In this document: positions 28,401-31,400 of the stretch, piece by piece
Layout of the letters: every line of letters begins with the position of its first letter
Numbering within the stretch: the first letter of the stretch is position 1
Assembly (NCBI RefSeq): GCF_057098645.1
Contig: NZ_CM169472.1
Direction: 5' to 3' (one strand)
Length of the DNA: 64,000 nt
Made by a program: the position numbers

Positions 28401-31400
28401 CCCGGCGATCCATCCGCCGCGACGGTCTGAGCGAAGACCTGACCGTTGGCGCGATCCACTGCTTCCATCGCCGACAGGTTGCCGTACCAGGCGATATCCA
28501 CTTTGTTGAAACGCATTCCCTGGATAATGCCCGCGTAGTCCGGGGCAAAGAAGGCGTTGACCTTCACGCCCAGCTTCTTCTCCATATCCTGTAAAAACGG
28601 CGTCCATTGCGGTTTCAGGTTTTGCTGTGATTCCGTTGAAATAATGCCGAAATTCAGCGCCTTTTCCTGCTCTTCGGCGTGTGCCGGGCTTAACAGGGTG
28701 CTGAGGCTGAACATGCTGGTGAAGGCCAGCGAGGCAATTATCTTAGCGTTCATTCGTTTTCCTCAATGATGGGGATGTCAGGCAGCTTTCGCGTTCTCTT
28801 CGACGCGGTTAATACTGCGGTAGAGATGGTCAAAACGTTCGTTATCAAACTGTTGGCTGCTACCGTCGTAGAAGACGTGTCCCTGACGCAGGGCGACGAT
28901 GCGTTCGCAGTAGCGCAGGGCGTAATCCACCTGATGCAGCGTGACGACCACGGTGATGCCGTCGTTCTGATTGATGTCGCGCAGGGTGTCCATCACGATG
29001 CGGGCGGATTCCGGGTCCAGCGAGGCGATGGGGTCATCGGCCAGAATCACCTTCGCCTGCTGCATCAGCGCGCGGGCAATCGCCACACGCTGCTGCTGGC
29101 CGCCGGAGAGCGTGGAAACGCGCTGATGGGCAAAATGCACCATGCCAACGCGGGTTAGCGCCTGTAATGCGCGCTGTTTCTGCTCGCCGGTGAACCAACT
29201 TAAACAGGTGCGCCAGAACGGCGTGCTGCCGAGCGCGCCAATCAGCACGTTCTCCAGTACGCTCAGGCGGTTCACCAGGTTGAATTGTTGGAAGATGTAG
29301 CCGGTATGGGCGCGGCTTTTGCGGATATCGCGGGCCAGACGGCCTTCGCGCTGGACAGTGCGGCCCAGTAGCTCGATATGGCTACCGGCGGATTTATCGC
29401 CGGTAATCAAACCGCTTAAATGACGTAAAAGGGTGGATTTGCCGGAACCGGACGGCCCAAGCAGAGCCACCATTTCACCATGATGGATATTCAGATCAAC
29501 CGCGTGCAGCGCCTGATGCTGATTGAAGGTTTTGCTCAGTTGTTCGACGCGGATAATCGTTTGCATGATGCAGCCTCCCTAAAAAAGTGGCTCCATCGTG
29601 GCGGATTATTGTGACGATTTGGTTAATTAAAAGTGACTAACAGATGAAGAGTTAACGGGAATTCGATGACAGTGCGGGAGGGCGGGCCTCCCGGCGGATT
29701 ATTGCGTTGGTTGTTGTTTGACGACATTAATCATCCACGGTACGCCAAATTTATCGGTGACTTTGCCGAAGCCATGCGCCCAGAAAGTTTCCTGCCAGGC
29801 CATTTCGATTTTTCCGTTAGCGGCAAGGTTATCAAACCAGCGTTTTCCTTCTTCGACCTGTTGCGAATCGAGCACCAGCGTAAAGCCGGAGTAGCTGGCT
29901 TTTCCTGATGGTATAGCATCGCTCATCATGATATCGCTTCCGGCAATACGCACGTTGGCATGAGCGATGGCAGTATCGGGAAATTGCATTCCGGAAGGGC
30001 AGCCTTCGGCGCTGTCCTGCGCTGATTTTGGCATTTCGCCGAAGCTGATTTTATAGAGCAGTTCCGCGCCCAACGTACGTTGATAATAAGCAATTGCGTC
30101 GGCACAGTTACCGGCAAAAGAGAGGTAGGGACTTAACGGCATGATGGTGACCTCAGTTAAGAGAAGCCAGTTAAGTGTAGTTCGAAATTTATACAGATGA
30201 GAGGCGGCCTGATAAGACGCGCGAGCGTCGCATCAGGCATCTGGCACCGTTGCCGGATGCGGCGTAAACGCCTTATCCGGCTTACCGATCACAATACAAT
30301 CAGTTCTTTTTCACAAACTCAGATTTCAGTTTCATCGGACCAAAACCGTCGATTTTGCAATCGATGTTATGGTCGCCTTCAACCAGGCGGATGTTTTTCA
30401 CTTTGGTGCCAATTTTCAGCATCGAAGAGCTACCTTTCACCTTCAGATCTTTAATGATGGTAACGCTGTCGCCGTCAGCCAGCAGATTGCCGTTAGCATC
30501 TTTAACGATCAGCTCGTCGCTTTCCTGTGCAGGTTCTGCGTCGTTCCATTCGTAGGCACATTCCGGGCAGATGTACATGCCGTTATCTTCGTAGGTGTAT
30601 TCGGAGTTGCATTTTGGGCAGTGTGGTAATGACATGTGGATTTCCTCAAAAGTCAGCAGGGCAAAAGCGCCAAAAAACGGCAGATTGCCGAAAAAGGCCG
30701 CAATTATACACAAAATCCCTGAGTTTGTCGGGGGTACTGCTGATTTTAGACGACGATCGTTTTCATTTGAAAGGAAACGCAAAAAGAAAATAATCTTTTT
30801 GCCTCCATTTATTATTTAAGATAAGGTTAATGCTCTACTTGTTCTTTTTTTTATTCACATGATATTTTTATCTTTCTGACGTTTTAAACGTATCGGAAGA
30901 TGTTATTTATTCTAATAAAAAACAACACTCTAAATATAAAATTATTTCTTGCAGTAATTATAAAAGCCGAAAACAGAACTCAAAAACAATCTGGCTAAAT
31001 AAAAGTAATAAAATTTGCTTTAAGGAAGAATTTTCTATGTACACACAGACCCTGTATGAGTTAAGTCAGGAGGCTGAACGGCTGTTACAGCTTTCTCGCC
31101 AACAGTTGCAGTTACTGGAAAAAATGCCTCTCTCTGTACCCGGAGACGATGCGCCACAACTGGCTTTACCCTGGAGTCAGCCTAATATCGCCGAGCGTCA
31201 CGCGATGCTGAATAATGAGTTGCGTAAAATTTCCCGACTGGAAATGGTGCTGGCGATTGTCGGTACTATGAAAGCAGGGAAATCAACCACCATTAATGCC
31301 ATTGTTGGTACGGAGGTACTGCCTAATCGCAATCGCCCAATGACTGCGCTGCCGACGCTTATTCGCCATACGCCCGGGCAAAAAGAACCGGTACTGCATT

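What the first reader, a model, noticed from the sequence alone, without database searches (positions are those of the whole stretch)
29605..29700. Pho box and GC hairpin in the yjdN-phnC spacer
Upstream of phnC, in phn orientation, lies a run of CTGTCAT-like heptamers with 4-bp spacers (CTGTTAG TCAC TTTTAAT TAAC CAAATCG TCAC), the expected PhoB site. Immediately 3' of the yjdN stop there is a perfect hairpin CGGGAGG-GCGGG-CCTCCCG with no U-run, which could be a processing or weak termination site insulating phnC from yjdN read-through.
Basis: partly seen in the sequence, partly recalled or inferred. Interest (0 to 1): 0.25.

Follow-up and report, generated by a model that had tools for sequence, protein, structure and literature searches.

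The report
Known phnC PhoB promoter plus hairpin

Summary
The window is E. coli (100% to O145 RM9872). On the minus strand yjdN ends at 29699 and phnC starts at 29566.

PhoB site: published ChIP-seq and ChIP-chip place it at AATTAAC-CAAA-TCGTCAC (29628..29611). A weight matrix built from 58 other PhoB sites gives the same register (13.2 bits, rank 3 of about 128,000 positions). The spacing to a conserved -10 (CACGAT) matches phoA, phoB and pstS.

Hairpin (29675-29693): a perfect 7-bp stem with no U-run. On its own it is not beyond chance. However, a hairpin sits at this position in 18 other species with 13 different stems that covary, and REP-like elements replace it in three species. C-rich, G-poor sequence follows it.

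In a phoB deletion strain, phnC RNA is about 66-fold lower per nucleotide than yjdN RNA, so read-through is negligible. The hairpin is most likely the U-less 3' stem-loop of a Rho-terminated yjdN transcript, but this was not shown directly. Interest is low.

The parts
29699..29701 (-). yjdN stop codon (TAA); the yjdN ORF is 30142..29699
   Evidence: ORF list; RefSeq annotation under the match
29675..29693 (-). GC-rich hairpin CGGGAGG-CCCGC-CCTCCCG: 5' arm 29693..29687, loop 29686..29682, 3' arm 29681..29675. No U-tract follows. It is the putative 3' stem-loop of the yjdN (yjdMN) transcript.
   Evidence: Folding; exact coordinates; a hairpin at the same place in 18 species with 13 distinct stems; covariation of 94.2% paired against 75.4% in shuffles, with 6 of 8 pairs changed on both sides
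29592..29674 (-). C-rich, G-poor untranslated tract after the hairpin (21 C and 10 G in the 80 nt from TGTCAT onward). Possible Rho loading region; it overlaps the phnC promoter.
   Evidence: Composition count in the window and in all 21 species, C 21-28 against G 8-14; this matches the class described by Dar and Sorek 2018. Inference only, no Rho data.
29666..29672 (-). Distal perfect CTGTCAT half-site, 2 nt after the hairpin and exactly 55 bp (5 x 11) upstream of the proximal half-site.
   Evidence: Present in 20 of 21 species and in phase in all 20; kept at the same 22-bp offset from the (C/A)TTCAT half-site in Hafnia and Shimwellia, which have no yjdN upstream; half-site score 9.3 bits, the maximum. 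PhoB binding to it is inferred.
29629..29650 (-). Upstream (weaker) 22-bp Pho box: TCTTCAT-CTGT-TAGTCAC-TTTT
   Evidence: In-phase 18-mer CTTCATCTGTTAGTCACT scores 6.9 bits; half-sites score 4.0 and 6.3 bits; CTTCA(T/A) and xGxAAC are conserved across genera
29607..29628 (-). Promoter-proximal 22-bp Pho box: AATTAAC-CAAA-TCGTCAC-AATA. This is the experimentally mapped PhoB site.
   Evidence: ChIP-seq motif ATTAACCAAATCGTCACA with peak centre at window 29612; ChIP-chip AATTAACCAAATCGTCAC at -53.5; held-out matrix score of 13.2 bits, rank 3 in the window; the best site at the same position in all 21 species
29595..29600 (-). Predicted -10 hexamer CACGAT; the predicted transcription start is near A29588 (MG1655 4325187)
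   Evidence: It has the same 9-nt gap after the proximal 18-mer as TATAGT, CATAAT and TATTTT in phoA, phoB and pstS; the C, A, A and T of CAnnAT are invariant in 21 species. The start site is inferred, not mapped here.
29564..29580 (-). Shine-Dalgarno AGGGAGG (29580..29574) and the phnC start codon ATG (29566..29564)
   Evidence: Sequence, ORF list, conservation

Best explanation
The spacer holds two ordinary elements packed back to back.

(1) The known PhoB-activated sigma-70 promoter of phnCDEFGHIJKLMNOP. Phosphorylated PhoB dimers bind an array of TGTCA-type half-sites spaced 11 bp apart. The hexamers, read on the minus strand, start at 29671, 29649, 29638, 29627 and 29616, and the position at 29660 is never site-like. 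The strongest and experimentally mapped site is the proximal box AATTAAC-CAAA-TCGTCAC (29628..29611). It takes the place of a -35 element, 10 bp upstream of a weak -10 (CACGAT, 29600..29595), and recruits RNA polymerase. Binding is weak for a Pho promoter, so phn is the last of the five PhoB promoters compared to switch on.

(2) The 3' end of the yjdN (yjdM-REP325-yjdN) transcript. The GC hairpin begins 5 nt after the stop codon and lacks a U-tract. It most likely acts as the stable 3' stem-loop of the transcript. Polymerase is released in the following C-rich, G-poor untranslated tract, probably by Rho and possibly helped by hairpin-induced pausing. Exonucleases then trim the RNA back to the stem. 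The result is that transcription of yjdN, which does not depend on phosphate, does not enter phnC and does not run across the PhoB-dependent promoter.

Shown: PhoB binding and its register; PhoB dependence of phnC; near absence of read-through; structural conservation of the hairpin.

Inferred: the -10 and the start site; PhoB use of the distal CTGTCAT; Rho involvement; the protective role of the hairpin.
For: PhoB promoter:
- ChIP-seq peak and motif, with coordinates matched through MG1655.
- ChIP-chip site at -53.5.
- EMSA on this fragment, KD about 1.7 uM.
- Highest PhoB~P off-rate and latest onset among five promoters.
- About 2,500-fold PhoB dependence of phnC RNA.
- Held-out matrix score of 13.2 bits, rank 3 of about 128,000 positions.
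- The same site is the best site 43-46 nt from the ATG in 21 species.
- Cross-genus conservation is periodic in this register: hexamers 0.79-0.96 identical, 5-nt spacers 0.54-0.74.
- The phase sum is +17.8 bits, and every other phase sums to -44 or lower.
- The spacing to the -10 is the same as in phoA, phoB and pstS.

Hairpin:
- It is present directly after the stop codon in 18 species, at -12.8 to -23.8 kcal/mol, with 13 distinct stems.
- Each 5' arm pairs 100% with its own 3' arm, against 67% when arms are swapped between species.
- 94.2% of cells are paired against 75.4% in shuffles (0 of 500 reach it). 6 of 8 pairs change on both sides. Slid-partner controls give 52-61%.
- No U-tract in any species except one MAG, and C exceeds G downstream in all.
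- REP-like double hairpins replace it in three species. This fits the published class of U-less 3' stem-loops of Rho-dependent transcripts, of which 24% are REPs.

Insulation:
- yjdN gives about 466 counts and phnC about 12.5 in the phoB deletion strain. These are DESeq2 counts; per nucleotide the ratio is about 66.
- The endogenous yjdM-yjdN transcript has the same length as one from a plasmid construct that ends at a terminator.
- The phn operon is assembled as phnC-phnP without yjdN.

Constraint on the whole spacer:
- 1 difference in 132 nt against MG1655, compared with 4.1% in yjdN and 7.1% in phnC.
- The spacer is >=99% identical in 91% of E. coli records, against 6.5% for a query that includes the coding flanks.
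Against: - No 3'-end map, bicyclomycin data or exonuclease-mutant data for yjdN could be found. Rho involvement and the protective role are therefore inferred by analogy.
- The C-rich tract is also the promoter, so its composition may reflect promoter constraints and not a Rho loading site.
- The low phnC signal in the phoB deletion strain could partly reflect unstable read-through RNA and not termination.
- G.U counts (8 on the sense strand, 5 on the antisense) do not show which strand folds.
- The covariation alignment was anchored on the loop, so it leans towards the structure.
- The window's own hairpin is not statistically exceptional.
- The transcription start of phnC was not available to me, because Makino 1991 is not held.
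- PhoB contact with the distal CTGTCAT has not been shown. Buttiauxella and Enterobacter sp. R1 lack it.
Confidence: 0.65

Rival explanations
1. One reading: three CTGTCAT-like heptamers, CTGTTAG, TTTTAAT and CAAATCG, each followed by a 4-bp spacer (TCAC, TAAC, TCAC), spanning 29643..29611.
For: The string is there. CTGTTAG matches CTGTCAT at 5 of 7 positions. The span overlaps the ChIP-defined site.
Against: - The 18-mers in this register score 0.27 and -14.7 bits, against 13.2 bits for the register 4 nt away.
- The phase sum is -65 bits, against +17.8 bits.
- Both genome-wide studies report AATTAAC-CAAA-TCGTCAC.
- With this register the -10 position would read CCGCCA.
Confidence: 0.03
2. The hairpin is a weak intrinsic (Rho-independent) terminator that releases polymerase by itself despite lacking a U-tract.
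For: It is a stable GC stem-loop right after the stop codon. Read-through is very low. One related MAG (L019) has a hairpin followed by TTTTT, so the site can evolve into a canonical terminator. Dar and Sorek note that such intermediate cases exist.
Against: No U-run follows the stem in E. coli or in 19 other species; there are 4-7 scattered U in the 12 nt from TGTCAT onward. The terminator scan finds nothing on the minus strand. By established knowledge of intrinsic termination, a U-tract is needed for efficient release in E. coli (summarised).
Confidence: 0.2
3. The hairpin is an RNA processing site, for example for RNase III or RNase E, that separates yjdN from phn RNA in a longer co-transcript.
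For: It is a conserved stem-loop between two genes on the same strand.
Against: A 7-10 bp stem is short for RNase III (established knowledge). If long co-transcripts were made and then cleaved, phnC RNA should still be detectable in the phoB deletion strain, yet it is about 66-fold below yjdN per nucleotide. Replacement by REP elements and the C-rich downstream tract fit a 3'-end element better.
Confidence: 0.05
4. The inverted repeat acts at the DNA level, as a palindromic protein-binding site or cruciform, or it is a chance palindrome with no function.
For: Perfect palindromes fold equally well on both strands. Equally good hairpins occur by chance about 3.5 times per 64 kb.
Against: The stem sequence changes between genera while complementarity is kept: 13 stems, with 6 of 8 pairs changed on both sides. 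This is not how a sequence-specific operator evolves, and it is not expected by chance. In one species (LSJC7) an unrelated hairpin occupies the same place, and REP-like elements do so in three others. G.U pairs make the sense-strand fold 1-4.8 kcal/mol more stable in five species.
Confidence: 0.05
5. The invariant distal CTGTCAT is not a PhoB half-site. It belongs to the yjdN 3' end, for example as a pause or release signal just after the hairpin, or it binds another factor.
For: It lies 2 nt from the stem, and in five species its first C is part of the stem. Its in-phase neighbour at 29660 is never site-like, so no canonical two-repeat box is formed. Buttiauxella and Enterobacter sp. R1, which have a divergent upstream gene, lack it. 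The 18-mer starting at it scores only 0.75 bits.
Against: It is a perfect match to the PhoB half-site consensus (9.3 bits). It sits in exact 11-bp phase, 55 bp from the proximal hexamer, in 20 of 21 species. Hafnia and Shimwellia keep TGTCA(T/C) at the same 22-bp offset without yjdN upstream, and an Enterobacter MAG keeps it behind a different gene (yjdM) and a different hairpin. pstS has a six-position array with the same footprint.
Confidence: 0.25

Closest known systems
Pho box / PhoB-dependent sigma-70 promoters of E. coli (pstS, phoA, phoB, phoE, ugpB, and phnC itself)
   Same: It has direct repeats of TGTCA-type half-sites every 11 bp, with A/T-rich minor-groove spacers. The proximal repeat ends 10 bp before a -10 hexamer and there is no -35 element. 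PhoB occupancy and PhoB-dependent expression have been shown for this very promoter. This is the phnC promoter of the literature.
   Different: It is a weak site: 13.2 bits, against a median of 15.5 for ChIP sites and 20-24 for phoA, phoB and pstS. It has the highest off-rate among the promoters measured. The array has one perfect distal half-site separated from the rest by a position that is never site-like. I did not find this arrangement described in the papers I could read.
U-less 3'-terminal stem-loops of Rho-dependent transcripts (Dar and Sorek 2018; hypothesis of Peters et al.)
   Same: It is a stable GC stem-loop just after the coding region, with no U-tract and with C exceeding G downstream. 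REP elements are interchangeable with it in related genomes.
   Different: No mapped 3' end and no bicyclomycin or exonuclease-mutant data exist for yjdN in what I could access. Here the presumed Rho loading tract is also a regulated promoter.
Canonical intrinsic terminator
   Same: It has a GC-rich stem of 7-10 bp and a 3-5 nt loop, placed right after a stop codon.
   Different: It lacks the 7-8 nt U-tract in E. coli and in 19 of 20 other species.
REP elements as 3'-UTR terminator and stabiliser (REP325 between yjdM and yjdN; Harris et al. 2026 preprint)
   Same: The proposed dual role is the same: limit read-through and stabilise the upstream mRNA. It works within the same operon, one gene upstream. 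REP-like elements occupy the hairpin's place in Lelliottia and two Enterobacter species.
   Different: The E. coli hairpin is single-copy, with a median of one place per genome. It has no REP sequence and matches no Rfam family.

Membership tests
Pho box (PhoB binding site) | Two 11-bp direct repeats with TGTCA-type half-sites that match the PhoB motif better than chance | tested here: met
   The held-out matrix from 58 ChIP sites scores ATTAACCAAATCGTCACA (29627..29610) at 13.2 bits, rank 3 of about 128,000 window positions. It is the best site at the same position in 21 species.
   The 18-mers score 0.27 and -14.7 bits. The phase sum is -65 bits, against +17.8 bits. The published sites are in the other register.
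Pho box (PhoB binding site) | PhoB occupancy in vivo and binding in vitro | tested here: met
   I did not test this experimentally. I matched published coordinates to the window: the ChIP-seq centre at 4325211 is window 29612, the ChIP-chip site is at -53.5, and EMSA on this fragment gave a KD of 1.7 uM.
PhoB-dependent promoter | The proximal box replaces the -35 element and ends 10 bp upstream of a -10 hexamer | tested here: met
   The gap after the 18-mer is 9 nt, as in phoA, phoB and pstS, and it lands on CACGAT. CAnnAT is invariant in 21 species. The transcription start itself is not mapped here.
PhoB-dependent promoter | Expression depends on PhoB | tested here: met
Intrinsic (Rho-independent) terminator | GC-rich stem-loop | tested here: met
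   A perfect 7-bp stem and 5-nt loop, at about -12.5 to -12.9 kcal/mol.
Intrinsic (Rho-independent) terminator | A U-tract of about 7-8 nt immediately after the stem | tested here: not met
   The tail is CACUGUCAUCGAAUU. The scan reports no minus-strand terminator. No species has a U-run here except the MAG L019.
U-less 3' stem-loop of a Rho-dependent transcript | A stable stem-loop after the coding region, with no U-rich tail and C exceeding G downstream | tested here: met
   21 C and 10 G in the next 80 nt; C 21-28 against G 8-14 in all 21 species.
U-less 3' stem-loop of a Rho-dependent transcript | The steady-state RNA 3' end maps immediately downstream of the stem | not testable with these tools
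   The Term-seq supplements are either not held or contain no yjdN entry. The only indirect evidence is a discrete endogenous yjdM-yjdN band.
U-less 3' stem-loop of a Rho-dependent transcript | Read-through increases when Rho is inhibited, and the downstream tail is trimmed by PNPase or RNase II | not testable with these tools
   No bicyclomycin or exonuclease-mutant data for this locus could be accessed.
REP element | Matches the REP consensus and is repeated in the genome | tested here: not met
   No Rfam match on the E. coli hairpin; the only match is naRNA4/REP325 at 30206-30282. The spacer has a median of one place per genome. The element in its place in Lelliottia gives a sub-threshold naRNA4 match of 26.8 bits, E = 0.0056.
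Conserved RNA secondary structure | Base pairing is kept through compensatory changes across species | tested here: met
   94.2% of cells are paired, against 75.4% in shuffles (0 of 500 reach it). 6 of 8 pairs change on both sides (2 of 500). Slid-partner controls give 52-61%. Swapping arms between species gives 67% paired, against 100% for own arms. Caveat: the alignment is anchored on the loop.

The most novel reading that the evidence does not exclude
The invariant CTGTCAT that abuts the hairpin is a lone, functional PhoB half-site. It would make a 66-bp, six-position array whose second position is always empty. PhoB~P bound there sits at the point where the yjdN transcript ends, so phosphate status could also affect termination or stability of the upstream yjdMN message, for example through a roadblock or 3'-end protection. 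yjdN RNA is about 1.7-fold higher in wild type than in the phoB deletion strain (q = 0.023). This would be a physical coupling of an activator array with the neighbour's terminator.
Probability: 0.1. Interest if true: 0.4.

Novelty: already known. Interest (0 to 1): 0.14.

Why it matters
It matters little beyond getting the annotation right.

The phnC Pho box is a textbook member of the Pho regulon and has been mapped by ChIP-chip, ChIP-seq and EMSA. The useful correction is the register: AATTAAC-CAAA-TCGTCAC, not CTGTTAG/TTTTAAT/CAAATCG. Motif models and promoter engineering with PphnC should use the correct register.

The hairpin is an undescribed but ordinary example of the U-less 3' stem-loops that end many E. 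coli messages. Its covariation across genera, and its replacement by REP-like elements, make a clean comparative illustration that such stem-loops are selected for structure and are interchangeable with REPs.

The conserved distal CTGTCAT half-site is a small, testable addition to the architecture of a weak, late-acting PhoB promoter.

Tried and rejected
- Full-text search for the literal string CTGTTAGTCAC returned only papers on human beta-catenin/Wnt signalling and cancer.
- Makino et al. 1991, the original phnC promoter mapping, is not held. Text S1 and Table S2 of Gao and Stock 2015, which give Pho-box positions relative to the start site, are not held. So I could not obtain a mapped transcription start or check which register the classical literature printed.
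- Term-seq and Rho data: no supplements are held for Dar and Sorek 2018. The held tables of Adams et al. 2021 have no yjdN, phnC or 43252xx entry. Peters et al. 2012 is not in the library.
- Rfam has no family on the hairpin or the spacer.
- The plain MAFFT alignment of the hairpins (A1) anchors on TGTCAT and misaligns the 5' arms, so I did not use it for pair counting. I used anchored counts, a swap test and a loop-anchored alignment instead.
- Deciding which strand folds from G.U pairs gave 8 sense against 5 antisense, which is inconclusive.
- I considered the 12-nt direct repeat GGCGGATTATTG, which brackets the spacer, as a possible insertion or duplication scar. I rejected this as probably incidental: it is 11/12 in MG1655, and only TAATCC is shared in Citrobacter and nothing beyond TAA elsewhere.
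- AATAAT (29610..29605) as the -10: rejected. It directly abuts the proximal half-site, it is ATTAAT or ATTGAT (no A at position 2) in most species, and it corresponds to the 4-bp A/T extension of the 22-bp PhoB site.
- The genome-contig scan returned no non-coli Escherichia species, so within-genus covariation could not be examined.
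Full report
**What is there**

The window matches E. coli O145 str. RM9872 at 100%, and RefSeq annotates yjdN and phnC under the match. Both genes are on the minus strand. yjdN runs from 30142 to 29699, with its stop codon TAA at 29701..29699, and phnC starts at ATG 29566. The spacer is 132 bp, the same as in MG1655, where phnC starts at 4325165 and yjdN ends at 4325298. Window coordinate = MG1655 coordinate - 4,295,599.

Three published lines of evidence place PhoB on this spacer.
- Fitzgerald et al. 2023 (PMC10294691) map a PhoB ChIP-seq peak centred at MG1655 4325211, which is window 29612. Their motif instance is ATTAACCAAATCGTCACA. They report phnC RNA at 32,470 in wild type and 13 in a phoB deletion strain.
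- Yang et al. 2012 (PMC3465305) list AATTAACCAAATCGTCAC centred at -53.5 from the start codon. That is window 29628..29611, whose centre is 53.5 nt from 29566.
- Gao and Stock used this same spacer as their phnC promoter fragment. They measured a KD of about 1.7 uM, roughly 7-fold weaker than phoB. phnC also had the highest PhoB~P off-rate and the latest expression onset of five promoters.

I tested the register independently. A weight matrix built from the 58 other ChIP-seq motif instances, with phnC left out, scores ATTAACCAAATCGTCACA (29627..29610, minus strand) at 13.2 bits. That is rank 3 of about 128,000 positions in the window. Weaker in-phase sites lie at 29649..29632 (6.9 bits) and 29638..29621 (5.9 bits).

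A half-site phase analysis gives the same answer. The six hexamers in the ChIP phase are TGTCAT, TCCCGT, CTTCAT, AGTCAC, ATTAAC and CGTCAC, and they sum to +17.8 bits.

**Promoter geometry**

In phoA, phoB and pstS (fetched from MG1655) the promoter-proximal 18-mer is followed by exactly 9 nt and then TATAGT, CATAAT and TATTTT. The same spacing in phnC lands on CACGAT at 29600..29595.

AATAAT (29610..29605) looks like a -10 in E. coli, but it is ATTAAT or ATTGAT elsewhere. It corresponds to the 4-bp A/T extension of the 22-bp PhoB site described by Gao and Stock. The predicted start near A29588 is my inference, because the original mapping paper is not held.

**Comparison across species**

A scan of one genome per species with PhnC as the query gave 80 loci. 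yjdN lies directly upstream of phnC in at least 20 Enterobacteriaceae.
- In all of them the best matrix site is the same xTTAAC-N5-xGTCA(C/T)A, 43-46 nt from the ATG, scoring 10.4-14.8 bits.
- The alignment (A2) shows conservation that is periodic in the ChIP register. Hexamers are 0.79-0.96 identical and the 5-nt spacers 0.54-0.74.
- CAnnAT at the predicted -10 is invariant, as are GCCAC and the Shine-Dalgarno sequence.

It is present in 20 of 21 species and always lies exactly 55 bp (5 x 11) upstream of the proximal hexamer. The in-phase position next to it is never site-like, scoring -6 to -19 bits.

Hafnia and Shimwellia have no yjdN upstream but keep TGTCA(T/C) 22 bp before the (C/A)TTCAT half-site. 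An Enterobacter MAG keeps it behind yjdM and a different hairpin. I therefore assign this heptamer to the promoter array and not to the hairpin. PhoB contact with it has not been shown. Buttiauxella and Enterobacter sp. R1 lack it.

**The hairpin**

The sequence is as described: CGGGAGG-CCCGC-CCTCCCG on the minus strand, 29693..29675, starting 5 nt after the stop codon, at about -12.5 to -12.9 kcal/mol. No U-run follows it, and no minus-strand terminator is called.

On its own it is not remarkable. The 81-nt context has z = -0.61 and the core has z = -2.3. The window holds 5 comparable perfect GC hairpins, against 3.5 +/- 1.4 in shuffles.

Comparison across species changes the picture.
- Each of the 18 non-REP sequences folds a 7-10 bp helix right after the yjdN stop, at -12.8 to -23.8 kcal/mol.
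- There are 13 distinct stems. Each 5' arm pairs 100% with its own 3' arm, but only 67% on average with another species' arm.
- On a loop-anchored alignment, 94.2% of cells are paired against 75.4% in shuffles (0 of 500 reach it). 6 of 8 pairs change on both sides (2 of 500). With partners slid by 1-3 columns only 52-61% of cells pair. The alignment leans towards the structure, and one row is mis-registered against it.
- In Lelliottia, E. sichuanensis and E. quasihormaechei the hairpin is replaced by a REP-like double hairpin of -39 to -44 kcal/mol. It gives a sub-threshold naRNA4 match of 26.8 bits.
- In LSJC7 an unrelated stem occupies the same position. In MAG L019 the hairpin is followed by TTTTT.
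- In every species the next 80 nt are C-rich and G-poor, with C 21-28 against G 8-14.
- G.U counts (8 sense, 5 antisense) do not show which strand folds.

**What the hairpin most likely does**

These features match the class defined by Dar and Sorek 2018 (PMC6061677). Rho-dependent transcripts have precise steady-state 3' ends just after stable stem-loops without U-tracts, followed by C exceeding G. The stem-loops protect the RNA against PNPase and RNase II, and 24% of them are REPs.

Insulation is effective. In the phoB deletion strain yjdN gives 485 and 448 counts and phnC gives 15.7 and 9.4. These are DESeq2 counts and are not length-normalised, so the difference is about 66-fold per nucleotide. 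The endogenous yjdM-yjdN transcript in a REP325 deletion strain has the same length as one from a plasmid construct ending at a terminator. Under phosphate starvation the phn genes are assembled as phnC-phnP without yjdN.

I could not find a mapped yjdN 3' end or bicyclomycin data. Rho involvement and the protective role therefore remain inferences. A weak intrinsic terminator is the main rival.

**Constraint on the spacer**

Against MG1655 the spacer has 1 difference in 132 nt, at 29698, just after the stop codon. yjdN differs at 4.1% and the phnC 5' part at 7.1%, with 10-17% divergence at third-codon positions. Across E. coli the spacer alone is >=99% identical in 4,928 of 5,400 records. For a 501-nt query that includes the coding flanks, the figure is 352 of 5,416. 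RefSeq annotates no feature on the spacer.

**Verdict**

The Pho box is already known and experimentally mapped. The hairpin is real, is conserved by covariation, and fails the U-tract test for an intrinsic terminator. It is best read as the ordinary U-less 3' stem-loop of the yjdN message, which, together with termination in the C-rich spacer, keeps phosphate-independent transcription out of the phn operon. Interest is low.

Noticed in passing
window 29600-29611 and 29693-29704: An exact 12-nt direct repeat, GGCGGATTATTG (minus strand CAATAATCCGCC), brackets the hairpin and the Pho boxes. One copy spans the last codon and stop codon of yjdN. The other lies between the proximal Pho box and the predicted -10. 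It is 11/12 in MG1655, and only TAATCC is shared in Citrobacter, so it is probably incidental.
   Followed up: partly
window 30206-30282: There is a strong Rfam match to naRNA4 (REP325 unit) between yjdM and yjdN: 99.9 bits on the minus strand and 52.2 bits on the plus strand. A 2026 preprint shows that REP325 acts as a partly Rho-dependent attenuator before yjdN and as a stabiliser of yjdM mRNA.
   Followed up: partly
window 29301-30142: The coding DNA flanking the spacer is unusually divergent between this strain and MG1655: phnC 5' part 7.1% and yjdN 4.1%, with 10-17% at third-codon positions. The 132-bp spacer between them has a single difference. This suggests either old allelic lineages at the phn locus with a strongly constrained promoter, or a recombination mosaic.
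   Followed up: partly
L085 (NZ_LR890349.1), junction equivalent to about window 29655: In E. coli strain MSB1_9D the match to the spacer stops inside it. An IS903B transposase gene and then yjcS follow, so the phn operon has been deleted with a junction inside the promoter region. Hit H12 also keeps yjdN only.
   Followed up: partly
L019 about 700-817; L063 about 2340-2500; L022 about 2280-2400: The upstream end of the phnC promoter always abuts a hairpin that belongs to whatever same-strand gene comes before it. In MAG L019 the hairpin is followed by TTTTT, like an intrinsic terminator. In Enterobacter MAG L063 yjdN is absent, and the order is yjdM stop, a different GC hairpin, CTGTCATC, then the same promoter. 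In Shimwellia an apparent stop codon TAG, whose reading frame I did not check, is followed by GTCCCGC-ATCT-GCGGGAC and a C-rich tract.
   Followed up: no
published data for MG1655 yjdN (window 29699-30142): yjdN RNA is about 1.7-fold higher in wild type than in the phoB deletion strain under low phosphate: 983 and 646 against 485 and 448, q = 0.023. This is below the authors' significance threshold. It could be noise, or an effect of PhoB bound next to the yjdN 3' end.
   Followed up: no
window 8522-8539 (+), 41390-41407 (+), 55594-55577 (-): Other 18-mers in the window score about as well as the phnC site with the PhoB matrix: TGTCGTAAATATGTAATC at 13.6 bits, TTACACAATTACGTAACA at 13.4 bits, and CTTAAGAAATTTGTCACA at 12.9 bits. 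I did not check their gene context. Many such sites are transcriptionally inert according to Fitzgerald et al.
   Followed up: no
window 29691-29710 (+): The scan calls a weak terminator-like site on the plus strand, CCGGCGGATTATTGCGTTGG followed by TTGTTGTTTG. It overlaps the yjdN stop codon and runs antisense to yjdN. The total number of such calls in the region is within the shuffle expectation.
   Followed up: no
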